Notes under the pieces: model-generated
The model's database searches: none
What the model was told of the DNA's origin: nothing
Seen by the model: the letters and a program-made list of their open reading frames with translations, nothing else
Assembly: GCA_964366465.1 (NCBI GenBank)
Contig: CAYITR010000001.1
Span: 1-41,145, forward strand
Length of the DNA: 41,145 bases
Direction of reading: 5' to 3'
Source of the DNA: an uncultured Candidatus Saccharibacteria bacterium
GTDB taxonomy: Bacteria; Patescibacteriota; Minisyncoccia; Phycocordibacterales; UBA9973
Program-made: the position numbers and the translations under genes
Shown: in pieces, positions 5,063-40,916 of the stretch
Position numbering within the stretch: the first letter of the stretch is position 1
Layout: each line of letters starts with the position of its first letter

Positions 5063-5075
5063 TTTTTTCTTTAAG

Positions 5076-5115: not shown

Positions 5116-5121
5116 TTAAAT

Positions 5122-6876
5122 TTAATATACTTCCGCTTGATAACACTTCTCACAATACACGATCTCCGGCCGATCGGGAGCGTAGCTGGTTTCAAACTCC
5201 ACCTCACACTTCCCCGCTCCGTGGTTGTGGTGGTTAGTTTTGTCGCACATGCACTCCCTGCGCCAGAGATGTAGTGGATTCTTTTGTTTTAAACGTTTGA
5301 AATGCCTACAATTCGGACACAAATGAGGAATTGGTAAACTGAGCCTCTTGTAAAAAACTAGTTCTTCAGAAGTTATTTTAAAAGCTTCGGTGCAAGACTC
5401 GTTGCATTTCCCCTCGTGCGCACAACCGATAACTTTACCGACGATAGAATCATCCGCGTCGTTAATATTGTCAGGTAATTCTTTTTCCTCAATTTCAATA
5501 TGATAGTTTCTTTGTTCGGGATTTTTCCAGGCAAAGCCAAAACTCTCTGCGCCTTGTTTGTCTAAGGGGTAATATTCCTGCGCAATTGTTTCGTTATATG
5601 CAAAAGGTGATAATTCCGCCGGAAAAAATTCGCCATATTTATACACCCTGCCCTTCTGATCAATGTAAGGCATTGTATTCATGTGCTCAATAATTTTCGG
5701 TAAGAGTTTCTCGTATTCTTCTTTTGTGTATTGCTTGTTTAATATACAATACTGCTTTTTACGAAACCCGATACAGCCGAAACAGTCCTTAACATCATGA
5801 CAATTCATGCAATAATAAGTATTTTCCGAGTTATATATGGTTATACTAGACAGATTCCTGGATCCAATATTAGCATCTACGAGTTCATATGATAATTCAT
5901 TTTTAAATATACCATTTCCGTCGTAAGAATCCTTTAGGTTGAGCGCGCTATATAAATATTTGGAATCTTCGGTTTCTTGATATAGATCAAAACAATTTAG
6001 ACAATTTTTAGCATTGTTTATATTGTCTCCAGTGCACCCTACGGACGAGAAAATATTAGCGTAACGGTGAATCGAAGAAAGATATAATTCGTTATAAAAA
6101 CGCTTCTTTATATTTTCTAATGCTTGGTCACTGTTGATTTTATATTCTTTTAAAATATTGAAATATTCATCTCGCGAATACTGCTTGTTCCAAATACAGT
6201 ATGATTTACTAATTAAATTAGTGCAGCCAAAACAATTTGTGCAGTTTCTGCAGTTATATAAAAAATAAGAATCCGTGCAACTTTTAGAGTTACGAGACCA
6301 AAATAAACGATATGAGTCCAAACAGCCCTCACATTCATAAGAAAGCTCACATTTTGTACACATTAGTAGGTCTTGTGAATCTTGGCACTGCATTAGTTTG
6401 TTTCCATATCTTACATTCTCGTTCCAGCCCGCGCCAAAAGTAAGGTAACAATTTTTGTTACCATCCACAAAATTTGTGTATTCAGAGTTTATGGAATTAA
6501 TTACAGAGAGAGCCACAATCGGAACATGACGGAGAAGTTTATTAAACTGAGTAAAAAAGGAAGTCGAGAAATCATAATCTATTCCGCTATCTAGCGCATC
6601 CCACTTGTCGCTCCACCAATATTCAGTATCGACAACATTGAAATTCTCGCTATCGCTATACATGCTGATAATGTCCTCAGAATGTCCAGGCACACGGCAT
6701 TTTACCTTATGTAAAGATCGCTCATTCCGCCAGGCCATTCGTCTCTGGTTTCTGCACTCCGGACAAAACGTAGGTGGCGGAACTTTGATCTTCTCATAAA
6801 ATCCGAAATCATCCGGCTCGATGGTGAAGTCGTTTTTGCAGTTTTGACAGGTTCGGTTTTCGTTTGTAAATTCCAT
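5122..6876 (-). CDS. Cys/His-rich multi-zinc-ribbon protein, paralog 2 (function unknown)
   Basis: 584 aa, collinear with and highly similar to paralog 1 (same N- and C-terminal ribbons, same central repeats). Preceded by GGTGGAG 4 nt upstream of the ATG. Confidence 0.8.
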   Translation of the reverse strand: MEFTNENRTCQNCKNDFTIEPDDFGFYEKIKVPPPTFCPECRNQRRMAWRNERSLHKVKCRVPGHSEDIISMYSDSENFNVVDTEYWWSDKWDALDSGIDYDFSTSFFTQFNKLLRHVPIVALSVINSINSEYTNFVDGNKNCYLTFGAGWNENVRYGNKLMQCQDSQDLLMCTKCELSYECEGCLDSYRLFWSRNSKSCTDSYFLYNCRNCTNCFGCTNLISKSYCIWNKQYSRDEYFNILKEYKINSDQALENIKKRFYNELYLSSIHRYANIFSSVGCTGDNINNAKNCLNCFDLYQETEDSKYLYSALNLKDSYDGNGIFKNELSYELVDANIGSRNLSSITIYNSENTYYCMNCHDVKDCFGCIGFRKKQYCILNKQYTKEEYEKLLPKIIEHMNTMPYIDQKGRVYKYGEFFPAELSPFAYNETIAQEYYPLDKQGAESFGFAWKNPEQRNYHIEIEEKELPDNINDADDSIVGKVIGCAHEGKCNESCTEAFKITSEELVFYKRLSLPIPHLCPNCRHFKRLKQKNPLHLWRRECMCDKTNHHNHGAGKCEVEFETSYAPDRPEIVYCEKCYQAEVY

Positions 6877-13228: not shown

Positions 13229-13249
13229 AATGTTTTTAAAAATTAAAAC

Positions 13250-13380: not shown

Positions 13381-13450
13381 ATATTTAATTGTATAAACAT
13401 TATACCACACACAAAACACCACAAAAAATAGTTTTCCACACCTATTCCAA

Positions 13451-28310: not shown

Positions 28311-28331
28311 CTACAAGGGTTACCCTTGTGG
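28311..28331. repeat. REP-like hairpin, left flank of the RayT-like gene
   Basis: CTACAAGGGttaCCCTTGTGG lies 3 nt after the cysS stop and overlaps the last codons of the transposase ORF. Confidence 0.75.
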
Positions 28332-28967: not shown

Positions 28968-28996
28968 ACAAAAAGTATAAATCAATCATTCCGAAA

Positions 28997-29839: not shown

Positions 29840-30685
29840 CTATTTTCTGAACTTATAGCCGATGAGTTTGAAAGCAAGCTTGGCGACGAGGAAGTCGTAA
29901 GCGTGGAAGCGTGGGATGGGTGCGCACTCGGCGATGTCTGCGCCGACAACATTTTTCTCGCGAGTAACAGCTTCGAAAATCTCCATTACTTGATACCAAG
30001 TAAGCCCCCCGGGCTCTGGAGTGCCAGTCGCCGGCATGACCGACGAATCGAATACATCCACATCGAAAGAAATGTAAACATTTTTGCCAAGTTGGCTTAA
30101 AATTTTCGGCAAGTCAAATTTGTTGCCATAGTTGACCTGTGTCTTGTCGATGTATTGTTGTTCCGAAAGCGCGGTGTTACGCGTGCCGACCCAAACTATA
30201 TTTTTAATTCCCCCTTCCTGGCACCTGCGAGCAGCGCAAGCGTGCGACCACTTGGTCCCACCCCACTCTTGCCGACAATCGGTGTGTGCGTCAAAATATA
30301 AAATTGAAAGATCTGGATATTTTTCTTGGTAAGCCTTCACTAAGGCTGGAGTGATAGAGTGCTCTCCACCGATACTGAGCAAAAATTTATCTGTATGGGG
30401 TGCAGCTGCTTTATTTATTTTATCTTGAATCGCTTCTAGATCATCCTCAGGGAAATCCAAAAATGGCAAGGTTGCAATTTTAACCTTGCTGTCAACTTCG
30501 TAACCATGTTCATGGTCATAGCGCTCCACTTGTTGCGATGCAGTGATGATAGCCCGCGGGCCCCCGCCTGTACCCTTGCCATAGCTTACTGTCTTCTCGA
30601 GTGGCAACGGCAAGATAAGTGCGTCCGCTTCTTCCAGCGCAACCTCTTCTATTCCTAAAAAATTATCTGGTGTGTTTTCGTCCAT
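29840..30685 (-). CDS. speB: Agmatinase / arginase-family ureohydrolase
   Basis: Mn-binding motifs GGEHSIT, YFDAHTDC and SFDVDVFD. Confidence 0.85.
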   Translation of the reverse strand: MDENTPDNFLGIEEVALEEADALILPLPLEKTVSYGKGTGGGPRAIITASQQVERYDHEHGYEVDSKVKIATLPFLDFPEDDLEAIQDKINKAAAPHTDKFLLSIGGEHSITPALVKAYQEKYPDLSILYFDAHTDCRQEWGGTKWSHACAARRCQEGGIKNIVWVGTRNTALSEQQYIDKTQVNYGNKFDLPKILSQLGKNVYISFDVDVFDSSVMPATGTPEPGGLTWYQVMEIFEAVTREKNVVGADIAECAPIPRFHAYDFLVAKLAFKLIGYKFRK

Positions 30686-30691
30686 GCTAGT

Positions 30692-31792
30692 TTATATCCC
30701 CTCTTTTTTGAGCTCTTCGATAATCTCACGAGATTTGCGAGAAATTTTATTTGGGAGTTTTATATTGAGCTTGATTAATAAATCTCCGCGTTTATTCTTG
30801 CCGATAGGCACACCCTTGCCTCGCACCCGCAGAATTTCGTTAATAGATACACCTTCGGGTATCGTAACCTCAATTGCGCCGTCCAAAGTCTCGATAGGAT
30901 ATTTAGTGCCGAGCAATGCATCAGAGAGTTTCAAATTTAAATTCATCACCAAGTCATGCCCGTCGCGTTTGAAGACAGGATGCGGAGCAACATTTATTTT
31001 TATATATAAGTCACCAGCGGTGCCTTTTGATATTGCTTCGCCCATCGTGGTCATGCGGATCATTTCGCCATCGCGAATCCCAGCCGGAATAACGATAGAG
31101 ATTTCTTCTTCACGACGAGCTACACCTTTGCCTTTACATTTATCACACAATTCTTTTGGCACCTCGCCTGCGCCATGACATTCTTCGCAAATTTTTGTGC
31201 TGGAAATAGTACCGAGGAATGATCTCTTGGCTTCATGAATCTTACCCTGACCATTGCAGTGTTTACAGGTAACCATACCTGAGCCAGCCTTAGCGCCAGA
31301 GCCATGACAAGACAAACACGCGGAAGTTTTCGTAATTAAAATTTTCCTACTGATACCAAAAATAGAGTCAGCAAAAGAAATAGTTATCTCGGTCGAGATG
31401 TCTCTACCTCGGCGCGCCTGCGCTCTGCCACCACCACCGGTGAAAAAGTCACTGAATATGTCGTTCAAATTTCCGAAATCAAACTCTGCGCCATTACCTC
31501 CGAAGCCAGTCGCACCAGAGAAATCAAAACCCTCAAATCCGCCGTATCCACCACCTTGGTGTTGGTGCCCACCAGCGCCCATGTTGGCATATTGAGGTCC
31601 AAATTGATCATATTTAGAACGCTTGCCTTCGTCAGACAGGGTCTGATACGCTTCGTTCACTTCTTTGAACTTTGCCTCATTCCCCTCTTTTTTATCAGGG
31701 TGATATTTGTGCGCCAGCTTATAGAAGGCCTTTTTAATCTCCTCCTTGCTTGCGTTTTTATTTACTCCTAATGTTTCATAGTAATCTTTCAT
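30692..31792 (-). CDS. dnaJ: Molecular chaperone DnaJ
   Basis: J domain DYYETLGV..HKYHPDK, a Gly-rich linker, and four CxxCxGxG zinc-finger repeats. Confidence 0.9.
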   Translation of the reverse strand: MKDYYETLGVNKNASKEEIKKAFYKLAHKYHPDKKEGNEAKFKEVNEAYQTLSDEGKRSKYDQFGPQYANMGAGGHQHQGGGYGGFEGFDFSGATGFGGNGAEFDFGNLNDIFSDFFTGGGGRAQARRGRDISTEITISFADSIFGISRKILITKTSACLSCHGSGAKAGSGMVTCKHCNGQGKIHEAKRSFLGTISSTKICEECHGAGEVPKELCDKCKGKGVARREEEISIVIPAGIRDGEMIRMTTMGEAISKGTAGDLYIKINVAPHPVFKRDGHDLVMNLNLKLSDALLGTKYPIETLDGAIEVTIPEGVSINEILRVRGKGVPIGKNKRGDLLIKLNIKLPNKISRKSREIIEELKKEGI

Positions 31793-31802
31793 AGATTTTT
31801 CA

Positions 31803-33338
31803 TCATATCATAGGCTCTGCTTCTTGTGAAGTTTTTATTTTTGGATTTTCTTCCGCAACTTTTTCCTCCTTTGCCTCGTCAGAACCTGTCGACTCGGTGG
31901 GTTCTTCTTTGCCTTCATTTTCTCCCTCTTTTTTATTTTTACCTTCAATGATAGCTTTTTCTTCTGCGCTTCGGATTATTGTCGCTTCTTCTTCGGCAAT
32001 CAGGCGCGCAGCGGCATCTTTCGAAATGGAGTATTTTTCATGAGAAGCGTTAATTATTTCTTCTCGATAAGAAGGATGAGTCGGAGGCAAAACTCTAAGC
32101 GTCTCCGCCGAAAAAGGATCGTAGGATTCACCATCAATGGTCATTTTGATATAAAATTCTGTCACCGCGAGGTTGATCATGTCTTTCACATCGAAGAGTG
32201 GCGCAAATTCCGGTTTCATTTTGACAGCGTCTTCACCCCCAACTCGGAAAGTTATAATACTCCCGCAATTCCCCAGAACAGCTTGGTGAACTTTAGAAAT
32301 AATCTGCCCGACATATTGATGGGCAATAGTTAGGTTGAGTCCGTATTTACGCGCTTCTGACAAGATGTTTTCAAAAGTCTGCGTAACCACATTCTGAAAC
32401 TCATCCACATATATGTAGAAATCTTTGCGATCTTTTTCGGGTATTGCCGCTCGTTCCATGCCGGCTTGCTTGATTTTGGTTAAAAATATTGACCCAAGAA
32501 AAGAAGAATTTTCCTCGCCGAGGCGCCCTTTAGAAAGATTAATCAGAATAATTTTCTCTTGGTTCATTAATTCACTTATGTCTATTTTGTTTTCCTTCTG
32601 CCCGAAGATGTTGCGGAGGAGTGGGTCGGACAGGAACTGCCCGAGTTTGTTGACAAGCGGAATAATAGCATCAGTGTCGAACTTCTCGGACCAGTCGGCG
32701 AACTCAATAGCGAAGAATCTTTTCACCATGTCGTCGGTGATATACTCCACCACTTTCTGCCGGTAATTTCTGTCGGTCAACATCGAGATCATCCCGCGCA
32801 TTGTCGCGTGCGGGTAGTCGAGGAGCGCAAGGCAAGTAAAACGAAAAACGTGCTCAAGCCTCGGTGTCCAGTTGGCGCCGAACTGCTTTTGGAAAACCTC
32901 AATCAAGCCCTGGGTAAGTTGGAATTTAAACAACGGGTCCACATTGGCGAGTGGATTGAAGGAAGCTGGAAAGTCGAGGTCGGTCGGGTCAATGATACAC
33001 ACATCGTCAATACGCTCTTTCGGTATGTATTCAAGCATAGCGTCGATGACATCTCCGTGCGGGTCAATCAAACAAAGCCCATGTTTGTAGGTGACGTCTT
33101 GGCGAAGCATCAGCTCCAGGAGTTTGGTCTTGCCAACGCCAGACTTCCCTATGATATACAAGTGCCTTCTTCTGTCCACCCGCTTAATGCCGAAAACGAA
33201 CTTCTTCTCTTCAAGAGAAGCCACATAATTCGTCCGCCCGATGAAAGAAACATCTTCGGGATTTACCTTGCCAAAAACCGCCAACTCCGGTGGCGGTGGC
33301 CCATATTTGATTATTTTAACTCGATTTGGCTTTGGCAT
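31803..33338 (-). CDS. Soluble VirD4/TraD (T4CP)-like P-loop ATPase, paralog 1
   Basis: FGIKRVDRRRHLYIIGKSGVGKTK (Walker A), LIDPHGD, FYIYVDEFQN (Walker B-like), LTIAHQY. No N-terminal TM helices. Acidic/Lys-rich low-complexity tail. Preferred start is ATG 33338 (the track uses TTG 33350). Confidence 0.7.
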   Translation of the reverse strand: MPKPNRVKIIKYGPPPPELAVFGKVNPEDVSFIGRTNYVASLEEKKFVFGIKRVDRRRHLYIIGKSGVGKTKLLELMLRQDVTYKHGLCLIDPHGDVIDAMLEYIPKERIDDVCIIDPTDLDFPASFNPLANVDPLFKFQLTQGLIEVFQKQFGANWTPRLEHVFRFTCLALLDYPHATMRGMISMLTDRNYRQKVVEYITDDMVKRFFAIEFADWSEKFDTDAIIPLVNKLGQFLSDPLLRNIFGQKENKIDISELMNQEKIILINLSKGRLGEENSSFLGSIFLTKIKQAGMERAAIPEKDRKDFYIYVDEFQNVVTQTFENILSEARKYGLNLTIAHQYVGQIISKVHQAVLGNCGSIITFRVGGEDAVKMKPEFAPLFDVKDMINLAVTEFYIKMTIDGESYDPFSAETLRVLPPTHPSYREEIINASHEKYSISKDAAARLIAEEEATIIRSAEEKAIIEGKNKKEGENEGKEEPTESTGSDEAKEEKVAEENPKIKTSQEAEPMI

Positions 33339-33381
33339 ATGATTTTGCAAATCACGTCGCGTAAGTCCTTTGGACGCGACG

Positions 33382-33672
33382 CTACCTGTATTTTAGCATG
33401 AATTTGTATGAAAAAGGTTCGGCGTATTTTTCTAAAATACTTCGCTCATATGTGTCGAGTTTGTCGTAACCCAAAATAAAATTCTTTATCACGCTCCATT
33501 CTTCCCTGCCTGCGGGAATAATATCTTTAAAACTTAAAATAGTATCAACTATGTCTAATGCGCGATTTTTTGCATTATTGGCGGCTTCAACTTTCCCAGA
33601 ATCATGAAAAGAAAAAAGCCGGCCTATCTCGGGATATAAGTTTGCCATATAAAAGAGCGCGTTTTTTTCCAT
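33382..33672 (-). CDS. Hypothetical 96-aa protein
   Basis: ORF only, spaced 3 nt from the upstream gene. A GC hairpin CGTCGCGT..ACGCGACG (33355-33381) follows its stop. Confidence 0.45.
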   Translation of the reverse strand: MEKNALFYMANLYPEIGRLFSFHDSGKVEAANNAKNRALDIVDTILSFKDIIPAGREEWSVIKNFILGYDKLDTYERSILEKYAEPFSYKFMLKYR

Positions 33673-33675
33673 AAA

Positions 33676-34032
33676 TTACTTTAAATCAATAAATTTCCGA
33701 ATAATCTCAGTGGCCTTTTTAATAATCTCTTCATTGCTTATATTTCTGGAGCGATTGCCAAAGTTGGGCTTAATGTTGACCATCGAATCAAATTCCAAAA
33801 CCCCGTCAGGATTTTCTTCAAAACGAATATTAAAGCCCCAAACATCTTCAAATTTTGAACCCGTGCTGGTCAGTAGCTCAGAATCTTCAATATGATAATC
33901 CCCGCCCAGCGCCACTCTGCCTCCTTCTATATCCACCGCTCCTTTTATCATCGTTCCATACCAAAAATCCGCCAATTTTTTAACTTCATCTATGCTAATC
34001 TTCTGATCTAAAATAAGTATCCTATTGTCCAT
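33676..34032 (-). CDS. Hypothetical 118-aa protein (small conserved-looking domain, unassigned)
   Basis: The ORF has an extended -10 TGCTAAAAT 8 nt upstream of the ATG. The segment GAVDIEGGRVALGGDYHIEDSELL..EDVWGFNI looks like a widespread small uncharacterised family and needs an HMM search. Confidence 0.5.
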   Translation of the reverse strand: MDNRILILDQKISIDEVKKLADFWYGTMIKGAVDIEGGRVALGGDYHIEDSELLTSTGSKFEDVWGFNIRFEENPDGVLEFDSMVNIKPNFGNRSRNISNEEIIKKATEIIRKFIDLK

Positions 34033-34138
34033 ATTTTTTTATTTTAGCATTTTTGCTGAATTTTTTCTACCTTACAACTTTATACTTTCTACTTTACCTG
34101 TCCCGTAGTGAGCTTTGCTCTACTACTGGGATAACCAC

Positions 34139-35860
34139 CTAATACACTTCCTGTTGATAACACTTTTCGCAATATACTATCTCCGGGCGATTGGGGGCAT
34201 AGCTGGTCTCAAACTCACTTGGACATCGGATGTCCAAGTGGTTGTGGTGGGTAGATTTATCACACATACACTGTCTGTGCCAGAGCCTGGGTGGGTTAAC
34301 TTTTTTAAATCTTTCTTGGTGCCTACACTCAAAACAATTCCTTGGTAAAGGAAGATTAAATTGTTTCAAAAAACTTAATTCACTCTTAATGATTTTATAT
34401 ATACGTTTGCAAGACTCACATTCAATTAACTCATCTAAAATATCAGTACTAACATCACTAATATGATTAGGCAAATCTTGTGATTGAATGGTGGCAGTAT
34501 GTTCTGGTTTTTCTCGTTCAATATAGTTAAACCCACCTTCTAAAACATCTCTCTTGTTTAGGGGAAAATAGTCCGCTGCGACCGTTTCATTGTAGCCGAA
34601 AGGAGAAATCTCTGCTGGAAAATACTCTCCATATTTATAAATTCGTCCTTTTTTGTCCACATACGGGATATTTATCATCTGCTGTTTAATTTTCTCTACC
34701 AATTCTATATACTCTCCCTTGGAATATTGTTTATTAAAAACACAATAACTTTTATTACGAAGCCCTACACATCCAAAAATATTGTTACAACCATGGCAAT
34801 TCCAAGAATATTCCGTATTTAAGCATTCCCACACAGTTAAAACAAATAACTGCCTTGATCCATTTACACCAGAATCCATAGCTTCATAAAGTAATTCTAC
34901 AATTCCAGTACCATACCCATCATAACTATCTTTTACTTTAAACGAATTCATTAAAAATTTATCATCTTTTATATCTTCAAAGACCCCAAAACAATACTTC
35001 GAATTATTGGCATGGCTTATATCATCACCAGAGACATTTGTCGAATTTATAATATTTGCAAATCTTCTAATGGCATCCAACTTTAATTTTTCAAATTTTT
35101 CTTTTACTTTTTTAAAGTTTTCGAAATTCCCCAAATTTAATTCTTTAAATCTTTTAATGTATTCATCTTTTGTGTATTGTACATTCCACATGCAATTTGA
35201 CTTATTTCGAAGAGATGTACAACCGAAACAATTAATACAATTTTTACAATCATAAAGAAAGTAAGAACTAGTACAAGAATCGACATTTTGTGAGAAAAAA
35301 GTTTCATAACTTTTAGTAGAAGAAATATCAGCATAGCAAAATTCACAATTAGAGGTTATGTACATATCTATAGAATCCTTACAGAAATTACATCGTGATG
35401 CATATGTTATATTTTCTCCACCCCAAGACGCAGATACTAAGTATGAATTTCTAAATTCGCCAATAAAATTTCCGTAAGAAGTATTAACGCATTTACCAAT
35501 AAAAAGATTAGGTTGGGGTACCTTTTCCATGAGAGTGCGAAATTGCCCAAAGAACGGTTTTGAAAAATCATAGTCTATGCCAAATGCAATTGGATCCCAT
35601 GAATCACCCCACCATATATCTCTTTCGTAAACAGTAAATGGAGAATCTGTTGAAAAACAACTGATTAAACTCTTTCCAGTTTTTGCACACTTATTTCGGT
35701 GTAACGTACGTTCATTACGCCAAGCCATCCTACGTTGCATACGACACTCCGGACAAAACGTCGGTGGCGGAACTTTGATCTTCTCATAAAAATTAAAATC
35801 CTCCGGTTCAATTACGAAATCTTTTTTACAGTTTTGACAATTTTTTGTTTCAGGTTTCAT
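34139..35860 (-). CDS. Cys/His-rich multi-zinc-ribbon protein, paralog 3
   Basis: 573 aa with the same architecture as paralogs 1 and 2 (CQNCKKDFVIEPEDFNFYEKIKVPPPTFCPECRMQRR ... CFGCVGLRNKSYCVFNKQYSKGEY ... CFECRHQERF ... CMCDKSTHHNHLDIRCPSEFETSYAPNRPEIVYCEKCYQQEVY). TAAAGT lies 7 nt upstream of the ATG. Confidence 0.8.
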   Translation of the reverse strand: MKPETKNCQNCKKDFVIEPEDFNFYEKIKVPPPTFCPECRMQRRMAWRNERTLHRNKCAKTGKSLISCFSTDSPFTVYERDIWWGDSWDPIAFGIDYDFSKPFFGQFRTLMEKVPQPNLFIGKCVNTSYGNFIGEFRNSYLVSASWGGENITYASRCNFCKDSIDMYITSNCEFCYADISSTKSYETFFSQNVDSCTSSYFLYDCKNCINCFGCTSLRNKSNCMWNVQYTKDEYIKRFKELNLGNFENFKKVKEKFEKLKLDAIRRFANIINSTNVSGDDISHANNSKYCFGVFEDIKDDKFLMNSFKVKDSYDGYGTGIVELLYEAMDSGVNGSRQLFVLTVWECLNTEYSWNCHGCNNIFGCVGLRNKSYCVFNKQYSKGEYIELVEKIKQQMINIPYVDKKGRIYKYGEYFPAEISPFGYNETVAADYFPLNKRDVLEGGFNYIEREKPEHTATIQSQDLPNHISDVSTDILDELIECESCKRIYKIIKSELSFLKQFNLPLPRNCFECRHQERFKKVNPPRLWHRQCMCDKSTHHNHLDIRCPSEFETSYAPNRPEIVYCEKCYQQEVY

Positions 35861-35902
35861 CGAATTTACTTTATAACTTTATACTTTCTACTTTATAACT
35901 AC

Positions 35903-37669
35903 TCAATACATCTCCTGCTGGTAACACTTTTCACAATACACTATCTCCGTACGATCGGGAGCGTAGCCAGTTTTGAATTTTTCTCCGCAGGCGGAATCAC
36001 CGTGAATATGTTTGGCGGTGTTTTTATACACACCCGTTTCATCTCCCGCTCCGGCGCACATACATGTTCGTTCATATAGATGAAGTGTCCGCCTGTCAGC
36101 AATCCGGCGCGCGTGCCTGCATTCGCTACACATCCGCGGAGCCGGCAGGTTTTCTTTTTTTAGAAAGATAAATTCATTCTCGAGTACCCGGTAAGCAAAT
36201 CCGCATTTTTCACATTCTAAAACTTCTTTAAGTATATCTTCCGATATTTCATTTATACTCTCCGGCAAATCAAGCGCTTTCATTGTTATCTTGTATTCCC
36301 CTCGCGGAATTTCAATCCAACCGTAATTGTTTTGCATCGCTTCTTCTTTAGAAAGAGGAAAATGTTGCATCGATATAGTGTTGTTATAACCAAACGGGCA
36401 CCACTCAAGCGGGAAGAATTCTCCATATTTATAGACAACGCCCCTCGAATCAACATAGGGCATTTCGCTCATCTGCTCCCTTATTTGAGGCACAAGTTTT
36501 TCATATTCTTCTTTTGTATATTGTTTATTTAAAATGCAATATTGTTTATTTTTTAACCCCACACAACCAAAGCAATTTGCAGAGCTGTAAAGATGCACAC
36601 CGTATTCATTTTCGCGACAATTCGGCCAGCAGTTTCTGGAAAATTTATTATTGTAAGAATTTTGACCGCACTCTATGGCTTCATAGCAAAGTTCGATATT
36701 TTCTCCCCAGTTGGTGGTGTCATAGTTGTCCTTATTGCTTGGTACCGCCAGATACTGGCAATATCGCATATTTTCACTCTCTCGCACGAGGTAGCTGTCT
36801 TTGACATTACGACAGTTGGACACATACGAGCCTGAAGAATTCACATTTTTTATTCCTTGAATATATTTGACGGGTTGAGTGTTCCAAAACTCTCGCGCCC
36901 TCCTGCGAGCTTCTTCAATACCCGACACTGTGTCGAGCCTCATTTTCTCAATTTCATTTTTATATTCTTCCTTCGTGTATTGTTTGTTGAATATCCGATA
37001 TGAAGCTTTGTTGACATTTACGCATCCGAAGCAATCATTGCATCCTACGCAACCTCTACAAAACCACATATTCCTGGAGTCGTGAGTTCGCTCGGTGAAA
37101 TAACATTGATAGCATTTAGTTATCCAAAAACATTCGTAACACCTCTCGGAGTTGTTTATGTGCGAATTGTCCACGCAATCTTTACTGTTATCGACAGCGT
37201 TACCATACATACAATCCTCGGAATCGTTGGAGTTACACAACAGGTAAGAATTTTTTAGTCTAGAGGCGTTGAAGGAATACGGCCTATTGATCATCCCAAT
37301 CACATTGAAGTTATACATTGGCACTTTCATTTCAAGTTTATGGAGCTGTTCCCAGAAAGACCGCGTCGAATCGTAGTCCTGTCCGTATTCCATGGCATCC
37401 CATGTATCCCCGAGCCAAGTACTCCTCTCGATTATTTTCCTGCCGCTCTCTTTGGGATAAGTGGAAAATATTTCTTTCCCGCTGAAAGCATCCTGGATTT
37501 TAAAAAGCTTGCGCTCGTTTCTGAAAGCCAGCCTCCTCTGCGCTCGACAAAGCGGACAAAACGTCGGCGCTGGCACCTTTACTTTCTCATAGAAATTAAA
37601 GTCCTCCGACTCGATAGTGAAATCTTTTTTACAGTTCTGACAAATTTTGTTTTCTGATTGGTGTGTCAT
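35903..37669 (-). CDS. Cys/His-rich multi-zinc-ribbon protein, paralog 4 (most divergent)
   Basis: 588 aa. CQNCKKDFTIESEDFNFYEKVKVPAPTFCPLCRAQRR ... CFGCVGLKNKQYCILNKQYTKEEY ... CSECRHARR ... CMC..HIHGDSACGEKFKTGYAPDRTEIVYCEKCYQQEMY. Its ATG abuts the kinase stop codon. Confidence 0.8.
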   Translation of the reverse strand: MTHQSENKICQNCKKDFTIESEDFNFYEKVKVPAPTFCPLCRAQRRLAFRNERKLFKIQDAFSGKEIFSTYPKESGRKIIERSTWLGDTWDAMEYGQDYDSTRSFWEQLHKLEMKVPMYNFNVIGMINRPYSFNASRLKNSYLLCNSNDSEDCMYGNAVDNSKDCVDNSHINNSERCYECFWITKCYQCYFTERTHDSRNMWFCRGCVGCNDCFGCVNVNKASYRIFNKQYTKEEYKNEIEKMRLDTVSGIEEARRRAREFWNTQPVKYIQGIKNVNSSGSYVSNCRNVKDSYLVRESENMRYCQYLAVPSNKDNYDTTNWGENIELCYEAIECGQNSYNNKFSRNCWPNCRENEYGVHLYSSANCFGCVGLKNKQYCILNKQYTKEEYEKLVPQIREQMSEMPYVDSRGVVYKYGEFFPLEWCPFGYNNTISMQHFPLSKEEAMQNNYGWIEIPRGEYKITMKALDLPESINEISEDILKEVLECEKCGFAYRVLENEFIFLKKENLPAPRMCSECRHARRIADRRTLHLYERTCMCAGAGDETGVYKNTAKHIHGDSACGEKFKTGYAPDRTEIVYCEKCYQQEMY

Positions 37670-38668
37670 TTAATTAAATATTTTTTGAAACTGTTGCTCG
37701 TAATTTTTAAAATTCTTTTCCATTTCTAAAAAATTATCTATTATAGAAACTGCAAATTTCTCAGGTATTTTCTTTTTACTTGAATAATCAATGCAACATA
37801 GAGTTATACCCATAAGAACATTACAAAAAATAATTGACATTTTTTGACGCTCAAGACTTGTGAGTTTTCTTATACTATTATACCCCTTGAAAACTTCTTT
37901 GGCTTTCCTCAGATCAATTTTACCCCCATTGCAGGCAAACCACATTATAGTGTCAGCTAAATCATAGGCTAAAATACCAACGTATGAATTATCGAAATCC
38001 ACAACCCCAGAAAGGTGCCCCTTCTCAAAAAGCACGTTTTCTGGTTTTAAATCTATGTGAATTGCCCCCGTGGGGAGACCGAGAGGCATTTTATAACTCA
38101 TGTATTTAGCTCTAATGTACTCTAATGCTTTTCTTATTTTAGGATTCTTGTGGGCTTTATTCTCTTTTACAATCTTTTCAATATTTTCGTAAAACTCTGT
38201 ATAAAATTTAGTGCGTTTAACTAAAGACTTAAAATTGGTAGTTTGCAAATGCAGCTTTCCCAAAAATTCACCCACTTCAAAAAGCATTTTTTTAGTAAAA
38301 ACTTTTTTTTCATTTCCAGTGATGAAAGTATAGATAAAGCTCCTGTGTCCCTTATAATTGAAAGTGCTTTCCTCACCTCGTGTTTTAATAATCTTGGGAA
38401 TAGGTAGGTTCTTCAGGTAATTTAATAGATTTATCTCGAAATCTAATTTTTTGGAATTGTGCCTAATCGAAATTTTAAAAGTAAAATACCCTTTCGTGGT
38501 TTTAATACGATATAAACAATTAGCAAGGCCTTTTTCTAAGGGTTGATAACTTAATACTTTGCCAAGTTTAAAATATTTTAAAAGATAGTTGTCTAAATCT
38601 TTTTTATTTACTTTTGGGGCTGATAGGTAGGCCATGAATTTAAGCAACAACTGTTGCTTTCGGTACAT
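37670..38668 (-). CDS. Protein-kinase-fold phosphotransferase (APH / homoserine kinase type II / CotS-like)
   Basis: Catalytic loop IHIDLKPENVLF (HxDxxxxN) and metal-binding VVDFDNS. Confidence 0.75.
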   Translation of the reverse strand: MYRKQQLLLKFMAYLSAPKVNKKDLDNYLLKYFKLGKVLSYQPLEKGLANCLYRIKTTKGYFTFKISIRHNSKKLDFEINLLNYLKNLPIPKIIKTRGEESTFNYKGHRSFIYTFITGNEKKVFTKKMLFEVGEFLGKLHLQTTNFKSLVKRTKFYTEFYENIEKIVKENKAHKNPKIRKALEYIRAKYMSYKMPLGLPTGAIHIDLKPENVLFEKGHLSGVVDFDNSYVGILAYDLADTIMWFACNGGKIDLRKAKEVFKGYNSIRKLTSLERQKMSIIFCNVLMGITLCCIDYSSKKKIPEKFAVSIIDNFLEMEKNFKNYEQQFQKIFN

Positions 38669-38702
38669 CTAGCCACGAGAAATTTTTTGCTTCTTGTTTC
38701 AT

Positions 38703-38728
38703 ATCATCATACTAGTATGCTAGTAAGC
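38703..38728. promoter_or_regulatory. TrpR-type operator candidate, site 3 (upstream of the kinase/Cys-rich operon)
   Basis: ATCATCATACTAGTATGCTAGTAAGC has the palindrome CATACTAGTATG at 38708-38719. It lies in the 63-bp gap between the ATPase-2 stop and the kinase start. Confidence 0.6.
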
Positions 38729-38731
38729 ATC

Positions 38732-40810
38732 TTATTCTAGCAACTTCTTCAGCACATCTTCGGGCACTTCCTTGATATTATTCGAAGTAAGCGGAGGCTC
38801 CCCGCCTGCATCAGCTATGCCTAAAGCATTGCGGGCAGGTGCAACTTTTTTGATTACTTCTTTCAATTTATTCATATCTTCCGGCTTGGCGGCGCGGTCT
38901 TCATGCTTGCTGGAGGCAGGAACATGGGGCACAGATTTCGGAGGCGTATTTAAGACATTCAGGGAAACAGGCGCAGGTGTAGGCGCTGTTTCAACTTTGG
39001 GTGCAGGCGCAGGAGTGATAACAGTAACTTTCAAAGCATTATCTTTGGCCAGTGTTTTATTCAGCACTTCTTTGAGCGCGGTGTTCGATTTGACTCCTCC
39101 AGTAGGTGCGAATTTTTTGGATGTATCTACCCTCTCTACTTTGTATGGATTAGAATGCACCGGGGAACGCACTGGTTGAACTTGCTTTTTTGGTTCCTGG
39201 TGGACAGGTCGCTCCTCCACAAATTCCCCACCCGAACTCGACGGAAACTCGATACCTAGATCCGCCAGCGGTTTGAAAAACTTTGAATCGTCGTATTTAA
39301 TCTGATTTTCGGAAGTTTTTTCTACTTTAACTTCGCCGGATTTTATTTTAGCAATACACTCCTTACAGTACGCTGGTCGCCCCGGCTCTGGCTTAAACGG
39401 CACGGTTTTTTCTAGCTTACAAAGAGAACAAATAATCGGAAATTTCTCAAACGAACCCGTAACACTATTCATACTGCTTGACGAAGTATCGTCTCCAAGA
39501 GTCATCCCGCTCCAGTCGTTAATTTCTTTCTCCACCACTTCTTTTGTCCGGCAATACAGCTCTCGCGAGGATTTGATAACTTGTTGTTCAATTTCTTTAT
39601 TGCCGGACTTCACCATCTGGGGCAAGGTCTTGGCCGAGAATGGCCGTGAGGTCACGCCATCAATCATCAGCTTCAAGTAAATTTTATAGTTCGGCAAATT
39701 AACGATGTCTTGCGGGGTAAATTCTGGGTCAAATTCACTTTCCAGAAATTCGGCATCGTCCGCGCCGACACGGAAAACGATCATTGTCCCCACGTTGCCG
39801 AAAATAGCATCCCGCACTGCCGAGCTTTTGTCCACCACGAGTTGAGCGGTGTATTGGTGCGCCACGGTCAAGTTCAAGCGATATTTGCGAGCCTCCGAGA
39901 GGATTCCAGCGAAGGCGTCAGTCACGAAGTTCTGGAATTCGTCCACATATAGGTAGAAGTCACGTCTGGCTTCCTCGGGAATGCGCACACGCTCCATGGC
40001 CGCGAGCTGAATTTTGGTGATGATCATCCCTCCGAGTAACGCGGAATTGTCCTCGCCAATACGCCCCTTGGACACGTTGACTAAGAAAATTTTACCCTCG
40101 TTCATCATATCGAAAACATTAATCGTGCTTTTCGACTGACCGACGACGTTGCGGATTATAGAAGTGGAGAGGAATTGTCCAACTTTGTTTTGAATCGGAG
40201 CGATAGCTTCGTTTCTGAATTTGTCCTGCCATGCCTCATATTCATGCACCCAGAAAGCCTTAATCACCGGATCTTTCAGATTGGAAATAATTTTCTGGCG
40301 GTAATCCTTGTCCACCAGCATTCGCGGGATACCGAGGAGCGTGGTGCCAGGTGTATCGAGCAAGGCTAAAATACAATTGTTCAAAATGTATTCCATTCTA
40401 GCGCTCCAAGCATTCGCCCAAATTTTCGTAAATATTCCCATTAAGCCCGAGGCCACCAAGTGCTTGTATTGCGGATCCACCAGCTCGAGCACGTTGAAGC
40501 CGATGTGGTGGTCGGCATCGGCGGGGTTGAAATAAATCACATCTTTCATTCGATGTGGTGGAATAGCTGAGAGCACGCTCTCAACATTTTCTCCGTGTGG
40601 GTCAACAAGGCAAACCCCCTCGCCGTTTTGAATGTTCTGAATAATCATATTGAACATCAGCACGGATTTACCTGTGCCGGACTTTCCGAGCACATAAACA
40701 TGCTGGCGCCTGTCTTTGCGCTTGATGCCAAAAAGGGTGTTCTTGTCCCGATAAGTGGTTATGCCAAGATAAGTAAGTTCTTTATTGAACGGCACCTGAA
40801 ATTCTTCCAT
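38732..40810 (-). CDS. Soluble VirD4/TraD (T4CP)-like P-loop ATPase, paralog 2, with C-terminal CxxC-x17-CxxC zinc ribbon and Pro/Ala-rich tail
   Basis: FGIKRKDRRQHVYVLGKSGTGKSV (Walker A), LVDPHGE, FYLYVDEFQN, LTVAHQY. CSLCKLEKTVPFKPEPGRPAYCKEC spans aa 461-485 (nt 39356-39430). Extended -10 TGtTATAAT lies 7 nt upstream of the ATG. Confidence 0.75.
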   Translation of the reverse strand: MEEFQVPFNKELTYLGITTYRDKNTLFGIKRKDRRQHVYVLGKSGTGKSVLMFNMIIQNIQNGEGVCLVDPHGENVESVLSAIPPHRMKDVIYFNPADADHHIGFNVLELVDPQYKHLVASGLMGIFTKIWANAWSARMEYILNNCILALLDTPGTTLLGIPRMLVDKDYRQKIISNLKDPVIKAFWVHEYEAWQDKFRNEAIAPIQNKVGQFLSTSIIRNVVGQSKSTINVFDMMNEGKIFLVNVSKGRIGEDNSALLGGMIITKIQLAAMERVRIPEEARRDFYLYVDEFQNFVTDAFAGILSEARKYRLNLTVAHQYTAQLVVDKSSAVRDAIFGNVGTMIVFRVGADDAEFLESEFDPEFTPQDIVNLPNYKIYLKLMIDGVTSRPFSAKTLPQMVKSGNKEIEQQVIKSSRELYCRTKEVVEKEINDWSGMTLGDDTSSSSMNSVTGSFEKFPIICSLCKLEKTVPFKPEPGRPAYCKECIAKIKSGEVKVEKTSENQIKYDDSKFFKPLADLGIEFPSSSGGEFVEERPVHQEPKKQVQPVRSPVHSNPYKVERVDTSKKFAPTGGVKSNTALKEVLNKTLAKDNALKVTVITPAPAPKVETAPTPAPVSLNVLNTPPKSVPHVPASSKHEDRAAKPEDMNKLKEVIKKVAPARNALGIADAGGEPPLTSNNIKEVPEDVLKKLLE

Positions 40811-40881
40811 ATAAGAAATTATAACAGAAATAATAGTTATTAAAAAGAGAAATGGCTATATACACACGTCACCAGCACCCC

Positions 40882-40910
40882 TTGACTTTTAGCACCGAGT
40901 ATGCTATACT
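40882..40910 (+). promoter_or_regulatory. Near-consensus promoter TTGACT-17-TGcTATACT
   Basis: cccTTGACTtttagcaccgagtatgcTATACTatattt has an exact 17-nt spacer. The spacer contains AGTATGCTA, half of the CTAG-operator 20-mer. Confidence 0.7.
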
Positions 40911-40916
40911 ATATTT

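What the first reader, a model, noticed from the sequence alone, without database searches (positions are those of the whole stretch)
39356..39430. Same terminal zinc ribbon (C-x17-CxxC, ..RP..YC.[EK]C) shared by ATPase-2 and all four Cys-rich proteins
ATPase-2 carries CSLCKLEKTVPFKPEPGRPAYCKEC after its motor domain, with exactly 17 residues between the two CxxC pairs. This is the pattern I know as the CxxC-x17-CxxC domain (TIGR04272). Each Cys-rich paralog ends with the variant H-x-H-x3-C-x17-CxxC, for example HPNHEGKCEVGFETSYAPDRPEIVYCEKC. They align on P.[DG]RP..YC[EK][KE]C with identical 17-residue spacing. A shared small domain on otherwise unrelated neighbouring proteins is a classic sign of functional or physical linkage. 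ATPase-1 lacks it.
Basis: partly seen in the sequence, partly recalled or inferred. Interest (0 to 1): 0.65.

Follow-up and report, generated by a model that had tools for sequence, protein, structure and literature searches.

The report
Shared treble-clef zinc finger, Patescibacteria
A small zinc-binding finger already known from databases sits on one of two paired motor ATPases, and a remodelled copy ends each of four neighbouring cysteine-rich proteins; across Patescibacteria these two gene families are repeatedly packed together inside the dnaK heat-shock operon, which points to a shared but still unknown job.

Summary

- **ATPase-2 finger.** Window 39356-39430 encodes CSLCKLEKTVPFKPEPGRPAYCKEC (aa 461-485) of a soluble VirD4/TrwB-like ATPase. 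It passes the curated cut-offs of TIGR04272 (38.7 bits against 36) and PF23477 zf_Tbcl_2 (37.8 against 27). The finger is kept in 74 of 81 ATPase-2 orthologs and in 0 of 58 ATPase-1 orthologs.
- **Cys-rich tails.** The four tails are sub-threshold on their own (19.6 bits at best). Paralogs elsewhere carry a full CxxC-x17-CxxC tail and a second copy near residue 60. Three of seven such paralogs reach the Pfam cut-off.
- **Homology.** Profile comparisons link all three module types (E 1e-9 to 3e-5). None of 150 cysteine-preserving shuffles reached the observed scores.
- **Corrections.** The window tails are the same finger with a 12-24-residue insert inside the first knuckle. Four Cys are invariant; the His residues are not. 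The RP dipeptides are 2 residues out of register. The predicted fold is a treble clef, not a zinc ribbon.
- **Linkage.** Synteny supports it independently. The typical order is grpE-(Cys-rich)n-dnaK-ATPase2-(Cys-rich)n-ATPase1-dnaJ.

Function is unknown.

The parts
39356..39430 (-). ATPase-2 CxxC-x17-CxxC finger core (aa 461-485), a full member of zf_Tbcl_2 / TIGR04272
   Evidence: Searches give the sequence. One search gives TIGR04272 38.7 bits against a cut-off of 36. One search gives PF23477 37.8 bits against 27. In the AF2 model the region has pLDDT 68-89 with strands 457-460 and 467-470 and helix 483-490.
38732..40810 (-). ATPase-2: a soluble VirD4/TrwB-like P-loop ATPase, followed by the finger and a long low-complexity tail with conserved 'LADLGIEF' and C-terminal 'EVPEDVLKKLLE' motifs
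   Evidence: PF10412, PF12696, PF01935. One search shows the conserved motifs. One search finds no TM segment. One search shows orthologs named 'CxxC-x17-CxxC domain-containing protein' or 'type IV secretion system DNA-binding domain-containing protein'.
31803..33350 (-). ATPase-1: a paralogous soluble VirD4/TrwB-like ATPase without the finger
   Evidence: 0 of 58 orthologs carry a finger. No TM segment.
3335..3439 (-). Tail finger of Cys-rich paralog 3314-5062 (aa 542-576): C-[12-residue insert]-C-x17-CxxC
   Evidence: In the AF2 model the tail blocks (aa 531-582) have 10-residue mean pLDDT of 83-90, falling to 72 for the last two residues, with strands 538-541, 558-561 and 570-572 and helix 574-580. 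No TIGR04272 hit when scanned alone.
5143..5253 (-). Tail finger of Cys-rich paralog 5122-6876 (aa 542-578), with a 14-residue insert
   Evidence: TIGR04272 15.0 bits, E 0.015.
34160..34270 (-). Tail finger of Cys-rich paralog 34139-35860 (aa 531-567), with a 14-residue insert
   Evidence: No TIGR04272 hit when scanned alone.
35924..36064 (-). Tail finger of Cys-rich paralog 35903-37669 (aa 536-582), with a 24-residue insert
   Evidence: TIGR04272 19.6 bits, E 5.6e-4. PF23477 15.8 bits.
4940..5035 (-). N-terminal CxxC-x24-CxxC finger of PF13451 (zf_Tbcl) type in paralog 3314-5062. The equivalent fingers lie at 6754-6849, 35744-35839 and 37547-37642.
   Evidence: It is homologous to the second such finger near the C-terminus (hhalign 98.6%, E 1.3e-15).
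3488..3592 (-). Second PF13451-type finger, just upstream of the tail, in paralog 3314-5062. The equivalent fingers lie at 5302-5406, 34319-34420 and 36113-36214.
4784..4897 (-). Decayed N-proximal CxxC-x17-CxxC module in paralog 3314-5062; the zinc ligands are lost but the fold is predicted with high confidence. The equivalent remnants lie at 6598-6711, 35594-35701 and 37397-37504.
   Evidence: One search shows intact copies in paralogs elsewhere. One search finds no HMM hit for the four remnants. One search gives pLDDT 93-96 for aa 51-90. One search gives the coordinates.
29840..40810 (-). Co-directional, tightly spaced cluster: ATPase-2, APH-like kinase, Cys-rich, Cys-rich, DUF5674, 96-aa protein, ATPase-1, DnaJ, arginase-family protein
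   Evidence: Related loci show the same order with grpE and dnaK upstream.

Best explanation
**Shown.** The 25-residue element on ATPase-2 is a genuine zf_Tbcl_2 / TIGR04272 'CxxC-x17-CxxC' finger. It lies between the motor domain and a disordered tail.

The C-terminal tails of the four Cys-rich proteins are divergent homologs of that same finger. Their first knuckle has been split by a 12-24-residue His-containing insert, but all four Cys ligand positions are kept.

At the family level each Cys-rich protein is built as [PF13451-type finger + zf_Tbcl_2 finger] - variable Cys-rich core - [PF13451-type finger + zf_Tbcl_2 finger]. In this window the N-proximal zf_Tbcl_2 copy has lost its ligands.

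The Cys-rich family is large, with about 5,000 clusters at 50% identity. In this work it was seen almost only in records labelled as Patescibacteria. It is tandemly arrayed, and it is strongly co-located with the paired soluble VirD4-like ATPases inside the grpE-dnaK-dnaJ operon.

**Inferred.**
- The fingers bind one Zn each. This was shown for TIGR04272-type small proteins of Methanosarcina mazei but not for these proteins.
- The fingers act as protein-docking modules.
- The finger on ATPase-2 and the conserved end modules of the Cys-rich proteins engage the same partner or each other. The Cys-rich proteins would then be clients, cargo or cofactors of the ATPase-1/ATPase-2 machine, which is co-expressed with DnaK/DnaJ/GrpE.
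For: **Membership of the ATPase finger.**

**Conservation.**

**Homology of the tails.**
- Sub-threshold but specific hits.
- Canonical paralogs score 25-29 bits with two matched stretches.
- 31 of 36 isolated modules hit TIGR04272.
- hhalign E values of 1.3e-9, 4.8e-9 and 3.2e-5, against controls of 4e-3 or weaker.
- 0 of 150 Cys-preserving shuffles reach the observed scores.
- An ungapped alignment of the three module types and the insert model.
- Four invariant Cys.

**Same predicted topology in both proteins.**

**End modules are the most conserved parts of the four paralogs.** Pairwise identity is 77% and 67% for the ends against 44% for the core.

**Synteny.**
- 28 of 80 Cys-rich-centred genome loci have an ATPase-1/2 homolog within 10 kb.
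- 41 of 69 ATPase-2-centred metagenome loci hold a Cys-rich gene.
- 23 of 30 ATPase2-to-ATPase1 intervals hold 1-3 Cys-rich genes.

**Restriction of the finger.** In 2.44 Mb of sampled loci, canonical fingers occur only in these two families.

**Literature.** Zn binding by the domain is shown in PMC12704099. Orphan VirD4-like genes, about two per Patescibacteria genome and possibly exapted, are reported in PMC12102498.
Against: - The window's own tails fail all curated cut-offs. Two of four give no hit at all.
- The conserved surfaces differ: VPFKPEPGRPVYC on the ATPase and FETSYAPDRPEIVYC on the tails.
- The net charge differs. The 25-residue core averages +1.3 on the ATPase fingers and -0.5 on the canonical CxxC tails of paralogs elsewhere. 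The window's own insert-bearing tails were not measured. A common ligand is therefore not implied.
- The Cys-rich model is compact (pTM 0.85). Its fingers may be fixed structural caps rather than free handles.
- Six ATPase-2 orthologs have lost the finger outright and a seventh has a degenerate one. Four of these seven still sit next to Cys-rich genes.
- Some genomes have ATPase-2 directly next to ATPase-1 with no Cys-rich gene within 10 kb.
- There is no interaction data, no multimer model, and the ATPase-2 model is poor overall (pLDDT 50).
Confidence: 0.55

Rival explanations
1. The homology is real, but the finger is only a small zinc-stabilised structural element in both contexts. In this reading it is a spacer on the ATPase and an end cap on the Cys-rich solenoid. 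Sharing it does not mediate any contact. Whatever links the two families comes from co-expression in the dnaK operon, not from the finger.
For: - The model of the Cys-rich protein is compact (pTM 0.85).
- The conserved surface residues and the charge differ.
- Finger-less ATPase-2 orthologs remain next to Cys-rich genes.
- The N-proximal copy has lost its ligands in all four window paralogs, yet it is still predicted folded.
Against: - The ATPase finger is nearly invariant across orthologs while the flanking linkers vary. That pattern is typical of an interaction surface on an isolated module.
- The end modules are the most conserved parts of fast-diverging paralogs.
Confidence: 0.28
2. The finger is a nucleic-acid-binding module. 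ATPase-2 would be a DNA or RNA translocase of the FtsK/HerA/TrwB type, and its finger would help to load substrate. The Cys-rich proteins would bind the same nucleic acid through their four fingers.
For: - The ATPase domains match PF10412, the 'coupling protein DNA-binding domain'.
- The ATPase finger core is mildly basic, +1.3 on average.
- One source names a family member 'Zn ribbon nucleic-acid-binding protein'.
Against: - The tails measured (canonical CxxC tails of paralogs elsewhere) are close to neutral or slightly acidic, about -0.5 on average.
- The closest solved analog by sequence is the second finger of LIM domains. From general knowledge, LIM domains are protein-binding modules.
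- No nuclease, relaxase or other DNA-processing gene lies in the cluster.
Confidence: 0.13
3. The resemblance is convergent. Two unrelated Cys4 motifs happen to share x17 spacing in Cys-rich sequences.
For: - The proteins hold 32-37 Cys each, so pattern matches arise easily.
- The window tails score at most 19.6 bits.
Against: - 0 of 150 Cys-preserving shuffles reach the observed profile scores.
- Intermediate family members hit PF23477 at E 1e-6.
- The aligned positions include residues other than Cys.
Confidence: 0.03

Closest known systems
TIGR04272 (cxxc_cxxc_Mbark) / Pfam PF23477 zf_Tbcl_2, the 'CxxC-x17-CxxC domain'
   Same: - ATPase-2 has the same Cys4 spacing and passes both curated cut-offs.
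- The predicted topology is a knuckle, a hairpin and a helix.
- Cys-rich family modules are recognised by the same HMMs.
- Zn binding was shown for M. mazei small proteins of this type (PMC12704099).
   Different: - The window's tails have a 12-24-residue insert in the first knuckle and fall below the cut-offs.
- In the Cys-rich family the domain is embedded in a 580-aa protein, twice, and each copy is paired with a PF13451-type finger.
- No function is known for the family itself.
Pfam PF13451 zf_Tbcl (probable treble clef, CxxC-x~24-CxxC)
   Same: The N-terminal and penultimate fingers of the Cys-rich proteins match it in 24 of 25 N-terminal double-module segments taken from family representatives that keep an intact N-proximal module (best E 3.9e-5).
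   Different: - All scores shown are below the gathering score of 24: at most 23 bits among the seven paralogs, and 22.1 bits for the one segment whose score one search lists.
- It is a different finger from the one in the finding; hhalign between the two types gives 9% or less.
VirD4/TraD/TrwB type IV coupling proteins (T4CP)
   Same: - The P-loop motor matches PF10412, PF02534 and PF12696.
- Patescibacteria are reported to hold about two such homologs per genome, mostly far from virB4 (PMC12102498).
   Different: - There is no N-terminal membrane anchor.
- There is no virB4 or relaxase nearby.
- NCBIfam T4CP equivalog scores are far below their cut-offs, 45.8 bits against 366.
- The genes sit in the dnaK operon.
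- One paralog carries a zinc finger.
LIM domain, C-terminal finger (for example CRP1/CRP2, PDB 1cxx, 1ibi, 1ctl)
   Same: - The spacing is C-x2-C-x17-C-x2-C with '...IYCxxCY'.
- It is the best match among solved structures (E 1e-4).
- From general knowledge, each LIM finger is a treble clef and LIM domains mediate protein-protein contacts.
   Different: - There is no contiguous first LIM finger (C-x2-C-x16-23-H-x2-C).
- The similarity is short and dominated by the ligand pattern, so it is an analogy rather than membership.

Membership tests
TIGR04272 / PF23477 (zf_Tbcl_2): ATPase-2 finger | HMM score at or above the curated cut-off | tested here: met
   TIGR04272 38.7 bits against 36. PF23477 37.8 bits against 27. 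46.7 bits when the finger is scanned alone.
TIGR04272 / PF23477 (zf_Tbcl_2): ATPase-2 finger | CxxC-x17-CxxC ligand pattern, conserved in orthologs | tested here: met
   Present in 120 of 120 close homologs and in 74 of 81 complete orthologs in fetched loci.
TIGR04272 / PF23477 (zf_Tbcl_2): tails of the four window Cys-rich proteins | HMM score at or above the curated cut-off | tested here: not met
   Best scores are 19.6 and 15.0 bits against 36 (TIGR04272) and 15.8 bits against 27 (PF23477). Two tails give no hit.
TIGR04272 / PF23477 (zf_Tbcl_2): tails of the four window Cys-rich proteins | CxxC-x17-CxxC ligand pattern | tested here: not met
   The second half (C-x17-CxxC) is exact. The first knuckle is C-x12/14/14/24-C instead of CxxC. 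All four Cys positions are invariant in 82 family members.
TIGR04272 / PF23477 (zf_Tbcl_2): Cys-rich family as a whole | Detectable homology of family modules to the domain | tested here: met
   - Seven paralogs with an uninterrupted knuckle were scanned. One gave no PF23477 hit, one scored 12.4 bits, and five scored 25.3-28.9 bits (E 1e-5 to 1e-6). The six that hit had two matched stretches each, and three reach the gathering score of 27.
- 31 of 36 isolated modules hit TIGR04272.
- hhalign E 1.3e-9 and 3.2e-5.
- 0 of 150 shuffles reach the observed scores.
- The two isolated Cys-rich modules whose scores are listed reach 27.6 and 19.0 bits, below the TIGR04272 cut-off of 36. One search reports only counts, not per-module scores.
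TIGR04272 / PF23477 (zf_Tbcl_2) | Binds one zinc ion through the four Cys | not testable with these tools
   Shown by ICP-MS for M. mazei small proteins with this domain (PMC12704099). Nothing has been measured for these proteins.
TIGR04272 / PF23477 (zf_Tbcl_2) | Treble-clef topology: knuckle, beta-hairpin, and a helix starting at the second CxxC | tested here: inconclusive
   The AF2 secondary structure fits in both proteins. ATPase-2 has strands 457-460 and 467-470 and helix 483-490. The tail has strands 538-541, 558-561 and 570-572 and helix 574-580. No coordinates or zinc were available to check the geometry.
PF13451 zf_Tbcl: N-terminal and penultimate fingers of the Cys-rich proteins | HMM score at or above the gathering score of 24 | tested here: inconclusive
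   Window proteins score about 15 bits. The paralogs score up to 23 bits. 24 of 25 N-terminal segments hit at E below 0.1; only the first segment's score is listed (22.1 bits), with a best E of 3.9e-5. The hits are consistent, but every score shown is below the gathering score.
Type IV coupling protein (VirD4/TraD/TrwB): ATPase-1 and ATPase-2 | P-loop motor of the TrwB/VirD4 type | tested here: met
   PF10412 41.6 and 31.8 bits. PF12696 27.0 and 26.4 bits. PF02534 29.6 and 24.7 bits. All are above their gathering scores.
Type IV coupling protein (VirD4/TraD/TrwB): ATPase-1 and ATPase-2 | N-terminal transmembrane anchor | tested here: not met
   The maximum 19-residue Kyte-Doolittle hydropathy is 1.13 and 1.06. 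The FtsW control reaches 3.22. Walker A begins at aa 42 of ATPase-2.
Type IV coupling protein (VirD4/TraD/TrwB): ATPase-1 and ATPase-2 | Encoded with a T4SS (virB4) or a relaxase; passes the equivalog cut-offs | tested here: not met
   No such gene is present in the window or in the related loci examined. The best NCBIfam T4CP model scores 45.8 bits against a cut-off of 366.
LIM domain | Two contiguous fingers, C-x2-C-x16-23-H-x2-C-x2-C-x2-C-x16-21-C-x2-(C/H/D) | tested here: not met
   Only the second finger aligns. No Pfam LIM hit appeared.

The most novel reading that the evidence does not exclude
Patescibacteria (class Paceibacteria) carry a lineage-specific machine embedded in the dnaK operon. 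Two soluble VirD4-like ATPases would form a hetero-oligomeric motor. The motor would handle a hyper-expanded, tandemly arrayed family of zinc-finger-capped solenoid proteins as cargo or clients, for example effectors handed to the distant T4SS or substrates remodelled together with DnaK/DnaJ. The shared treble-clef finger would act as the recognition handle. This would give a function to the roughly two orphan 'T4CP' genes per genome that a 2025 survey could not place.
Probability: 0.15. Interest if true: 0.8.

Novelty: new variant of a known kind. Interest (0 to 1): 0.5.

Why it matters
The finger on ATPase-2 is already annotated in public records, so that part is ordinary. Three things are not in the databases or in the papers searched.

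1. A family with about 5,000 clusters at 50% identity, seen here almost only in Patescibacteria records and labelled 'hypothetical' with no Pfam assignment, is built from two pairs of recognisable treble-clef fingers around a variable core.
2. Its tail is an insert-bearing variant of the CxxC-x17-CxxC domain.
3. This family is packed with the orphan VirD4-like ATPase pair inside the grpE-dnaK-dnaJ operon across many Paceibacteria lineages.

Together these give a concrete, testable partner set for two abundant gene families of unknown role in organisms with very small genomes.

Tried and rejected
- **Homolog search with the 49-aa finger alone.** No candidate was found, because of the word index. 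The search was wasted.
- **Foldseek of the Cys-rich model against the PDB.** Nothing scored E 0.001 or better. There were only weak left-handed beta-helix look-alikes at E 1 or worse.
- **Similarity of the Cys-rich core to the DnaJ CxxCxGxG zinc domain.** hhalign gave probability 0.1%, so this was rejected.
- **Tail as a copy of the PF13451-type finger of the same protein.** hhalign gave less than 1%, so this was rejected.
- **Known anti-phage defence system.** PADLOC gave only generic HerA/mad8 P-loop hits for the ATPases and nothing for the Cys-rich, DUF5674 or 96-aa proteins.
- **Phage or viral origin.** No relative was found in IMG/VR or among GenBank phages.
- **CIRCE/HrcA operator in the window.** None was found with 3 mismatches or fewer.
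- **Promoter and terminator scans.** Results were at shuffle level.
- **AF2 of full-length ATPase-2.** The model was poor (pLDDT 50) apart from the finger.
- **Literature.** No paper mentions PF13451, PF23477 or TIGR04272 by accession. No paper was found describing this Cys-rich family.
Full report
**Where the window comes from.** The 41-kb window (41.5% G+C) carries housekeeping genes: ftsW, a mraY-like gene, scpA/B, metK, aspS/asnS-type and tyrS/trpS-type synthetases, dnaB, cysS and dnaJ. The closest relatives of its proteins come from Candidatus Nomurabacteria, Paceibacterota, Minisyncoccia and similar Patescibacteria assemblies. It is a chromosomal stretch of a Paceibacteria-class CPR bacterium.

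**The observation.** Coordinates 39356-39430 on the minus strand encode CSLCKLEKTVPFKPEPGRPAYCKEC. This is aa 461-485 of a 692-aa ORF (38732-40810).
- Its N-terminal 440 residues are a VirD4/TrwB-type P-loop motor, matching PF10412, PF02534, PF12696 and PF01935.
- The finger passes the curated cut-offs of TIGR04272 (38.7 bits against 36, E 5.8e-10) and of Pfam PF23477 zf_Tbcl_2 (37.8 bits against 27). Scanned alone it scores 46.7 bits.
- The four Cys-rich ORFs (3314-5062, 5122-6876, 34139-35860, 35903-37669; 573-588 aa; 32-37 Cys each) all end in C-x17-CxxC plus six residues.
- ATPase-1 (31803-33350) is a paralogous motor without any such element.

The description is therefore correct at the stated coordinates.

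**Is the ATPase finger conserved?** All 120 best homologs (69-80% identity) carry CxxC-x17-CxxC and a precomputed PF23477 hit. NCBI and JGI already name many of them 'CxxC-x17-CxxC domain-containing protein'.
- In fetched loci, 74 of 81 complete ATPase-2 orthologs have the finger. None of 58 ATPase-1 orthologs has it.
- Six orthologs have deleted it cleanly and one has a degenerate copy. All seven keep a downstream '...LGIEF' or closely related ('EKLGISS') motif and a C-terminal helix.

**Are the Cys-rich tails the same domain?** Taken alone, the window's tails are weak.
- Two of four hit TIGR04272, at 15.0 and 19.6 bits. Two give nothing.
- One hits PF23477 at 15.8 bits.
- Only 6 of 82 close family members hit PF23477 at E 1 or better.

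The decisive evidence came from paralogs in other genomes (80 loci).
- Many end in an uninterrupted CxxC-x17-CxxC, for example RACDKCNKEIMTNYAPDRPEIVYCESCYQKEVY.
- Many also carry a second CxxC-x17-CxxC about 60 residues from the N-terminus, for example CDLCGKNIVTMYAPESKFTVYCNPCWWSDKWD.
- Seven such proteins were scanned against Pfam. Five scored 25-29 bits on PF23477 (E 1e-5 to 1e-6), one scored 12.4 bits and one gave no hit. The six that hit had two matched stretches each, and three reach the gathering score.
- Of 36 isolated modules (10 ATPase fingers, 14 N-proximal, 12 tails), 31 hit TIGR04272. It is by far the commonest family hit.

Profile-profile comparison gives the same answer.

| Comparison | Probability | E-value |
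|---|---|---|
| N-proximal modules against ATPase fingers | 96% | 1.3e-9 |
| Tails against N-proximal modules | 96% | 4.8e-9 |
| Tails against ATPase fingers | 73% | 3.2e-5 |
| Any of these against the other finger type of the same proteins | 9% or less | 4e-3 or weaker |

I then shuffled the non-Cys columns while keeping the Cys columns fixed. None of 150 shuffles reached the observed score. For the tails the observed score was 23.1, against a shuffle mean of 10.0 (sd 2.4, maximum 17.3). For the N-proximal modules it was 38.4, against a mean of 12.7 (sd 2.9, maximum 24.2). The similarity is therefore more than shared Cys spacing.

**What the window's tails really are.** An alignment that includes the preceding 'LxLW.R.C' segment is informative. 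The first Cys of the canonical knuckle is retained (C542 in ORF 3314-5062). An insert of 12, 14, 14 or 24 residues (MCDKKHPNHEGK and similar) separates it from the second Cys.
- C542, C555, C573 and C576 are invariant in 82 family members. The His residues do not reach 90% conservation.
- Among 140 full-length representatives at 50% identity, I classified tails by the residues just before the second knuckle Cys. The counts were His-type 91, plain CxxC 33, C-x3-4-C 8, none 7 and other 1.
Whether the extra Cys and His of the loop bind a second metal is unknown.
The in-register conserved positions are an aromatic at spacer position 8, Pro at 10, and [VIA]-Y before the last CxxC.

**Architecture of the Cys-rich family.**
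- Each protein starts with a CxxC-x24-CxxC finger. A homologous finger sits just before the tail (hhalign 98.6%, E 1.3e-15).
- Both resemble PF13451 zf_Tbcl. 24 of 25 N-terminal segments hit it, with a best E of 3.9e-5, and every score shown is below the gathering score.
- The family plan is therefore [zf_Tbcl-like + zf_Tbcl_2] - core - [zf_Tbcl-like + zf_Tbcl_2].
- In all four window paralogs the N-proximal zf_Tbcl_2 copy has lost its ligands and gives no HMM hit. It is still modelled with pLDDT 93-96.
- The AF2 model of ORF 3314-5062 is confident overall (pLDDT 83.7, pTM 0.85). The Cys-rich repeats of the core are less sure (pLDDT about 60).
- Foldseek finds no significant PDB relative. There are only weak left-handed beta-helix look-alikes.
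- Among the four window paralogs the ends are much better conserved than the core. Pairwise identity is 77% for the N-terminal finger, 67% for the tail and 44% for the core.
- The family has 4,957 representatives at 50% identity with E 0.001 or better. No Pfam assignment is on record for it. No relative was found in viral collections.
- None of the proteins has a predicted membrane segment.

**Fold.** In both proteins a strand precedes the first Cys, a hairpin fills the x17 spacer, and a helix starts at the second CxxC.
- ATPase-2: strands 457-460 and 467-470, helix 483-490.
- Tail: strands 538-541, 558-561 and 570-572, helix 574-580.

This is the treble-clef arrangement that Pfam's name implies, not a two-knuckle zinc ribbon. 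The only solved sequences that resemble the module are the C-terminal fingers of LIM domains (CRP1/CRP2, E 1e-4). Zinc binding by TIGR04272-type small proteins was shown by ICP-MS in Methanosarcina mazei (PMC12704099). The function of the domain is unknown there too.

**Genomic linkage.** In the window the minus-strand order is ATPase-2, APH-like kinase, Cys-rich, Cys-rich, DUF5674, a 96-aa protein, ATPase-1, DnaJ and an arginase-family protein. The gaps are 0-106 bp.

Related genomes show grpE-dnaK-ATPase2-ATPase1-dnaJ as the core. Cys-rich genes (with or without DUF5674 and the 96-aa gene) lie between the ATPases, and often also between grpE and dnaK.
- Of 80 Cys-rich-centred genome loci, 28 have an ATPase-1/2 homolog within 10 kb. 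I estimate a few percent would be expected for a single locus in a genome under 1 Mb.
- Of 69 ATPase-2-centred metagenome loci with usable flanks, 41 hold a Cys-rich gene.
- Of 30 ATPase2-to-ATPase1 intervals, 23 hold one to three Cys-rich genes.
- Cys-rich genes also form long tandem arrays elsewhere, up to 12 copies in L067 and 9 in L024.
- In 2.44 Mb of sampled loci, canonical CxxC-x17-CxxC modules occur only in these two families. That sample is biased towards these neighbourhoods.
- A 2025 survey counted 5,713 VirD4-like homologs in 2,918 Patescibacteria genomes. Only 148 were near virB4, and the authors raised the possibility of exaptation (PMC12102498). The ATPase pair described here fits that unexplained population. 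I have not shown that they are the same genes.

**How it most likely works.**
- Shown: the homology of the fingers, their conservation, and the gene linkage.
- Inferred: each finger binds one Zn through four Cys and serves as a docking surface.

On ATPase-2 the finger is an isolated 35-residue module between variable linkers. Its non-ligand residues are nearly invariant. That suggests an interaction site. On the Cys-rich proteins the finger pairs are the conserved ends of otherwise fast-diverging paralogs.

I therefore favour a model in which the Cys-rich proteins are clients, cargo or cofactors of the ATPase-1/ATPase-2 motor. The whole set would be co-expressed with DnaK/DnaJ/GrpE, and the homologous fingers would engage a common partner or each other.

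Several results argue against a finger-mediated link specifically:
- the different conserved surfaces and charges;
- the compact Cys-rich model;
- the persistence of Cys-rich neighbours beside finger-less ATPase-2 genes;
- genomes in which the two ATPases abut with no Cys-rich gene nearby.

A purely structural role for the finger, or nucleic-acid binding, remain live rivals. Convergence is effectively excluded.

**Novelty and verdict.** The ATPase-2 finger is a known, already annotated domain. The insert-bearing tail variant, the double finger-pair architecture of a very large unannotated family, and its packing with orphan VirD4-like ATPases in the dnaK operon are not in the databases or papers I could search. 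I rate the finding as a new variant of a known kind. It is of moderate interest as it stands. It would be of high interest if the ATPase and Cys-rich protein relationship proves to be a dedicated machine.

Noticed in passing
window 13283-13382 (-): A SAM riboswitch (RF00162, 64.6 bits, E 6e-13) lies directly upstream of metK. It overlaps the first 66 nt of the mechanical metK ORF 12293-13348, so the true start codon is probably further downstream. The Pfam match begins at aa 42.
   Followed up: partly
window 40850-41145: This is a non-coding stretch of 56% G+C in a 41.5% G+C window. It carries a terminator-like hairpin at 41098-41080 (-) and lies where relatives have dnaK. It has no ORF, no tRNA, no Rfam hit (E 1 or better) and no blastn similarity to any of 165 related loci. 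It may be the truncated end of a structured RNA or of foreign DNA at the contig end.
   Followed up: partly
window 37670-38668 (-): An APH-family phosphotransferase/kinase-like gene (PF01636, 93.8 bits) is wedged between ATPase-2 and the first Cys-rich gene, with no gap before the latter. tblastn found no counterpart in any of the 165 related loci, so this insertion appears specific to this genome.
   Followed up: partly
window 38732-39300 (-), ATPase-2 aa about 505-692: The low-complexity tail of ATPase-2 holds two short motifs that are conserved across orthologs: 'KFFKPLADLGIEF' and the extreme C-terminus 'KEVPEDVL+K+LE'. The seven orthologs that lack an intact finger keep an '...LGIEF'-like motif and a C-terminal helix; only one of them (L142) shows the 'KEVPEDVL'-type C-terminal motif itself. 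These look like docking motifs for an unknown partner.
   Followed up: partly
L067 (whole locus), L024, L065, L076: The Cys-rich family forms long tandem arrays: 12 consecutive copies in about 21.8 kb of L067 and 9 in L024. Paralogs within an array are only 31-50% identical to the window's proteins.
   Followed up: partly
window 1100-6876; L110, L027, L133, L131, L154, L062: There is a second recurrent neighbour. The window's other Cys-rich pair lies next to a mraY-like gene and ftsW. In several related loci ftsW lies beside Cys-rich genes or beside the ATPase pair, for example L110: dnaK-ATPase2-Cys-Cys-mraY-like-ftsW. This hints at a link to the division/cell-wall cluster.
   Followed up: no
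window 6943-7872 (-): A D-Ala-D-Ala carboxypeptidase (Peptidase_S11) is split into two consecutive ORFs. ORF 7279-7872 matches profile positions 7-147 and ORF 6943-7269 matches positions 153-235. This is a probable frameshift, pseudogene or sequencing error.
   Followed up: no
window 33382-34032 (-): DUF5674 (75 bits) and a 96-aa protein with no family travel together as a pair. They lie between the Cys-rich genes and ATPase-1 in many related loci (L001, L025, L086, L091, L095, L106, L119 and others), sometimes without any Cys-rich gene between the ATPases.
   Followed up: partly
window 28320-28985 (-): A 221-aa ORF has a partial IS200-like Y1 transposase match (PF01797, 29.3 bits, profile positions 41-119). 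It is a possible mobile-element remnant between cysS and the arginase/dnaJ cluster.
   Followed up: no
L056 and L069 record titles: Two loci that carry typical Patescibacteria Cys-rich and ATPase genes come from MAGs labelled Burkholderiales and Gammaproteobacteria. Many others are auto-labelled 'Saccharibacteria'. These are probably binning or labelling errors rather than a wider distribution of the family.
   Followed up: no
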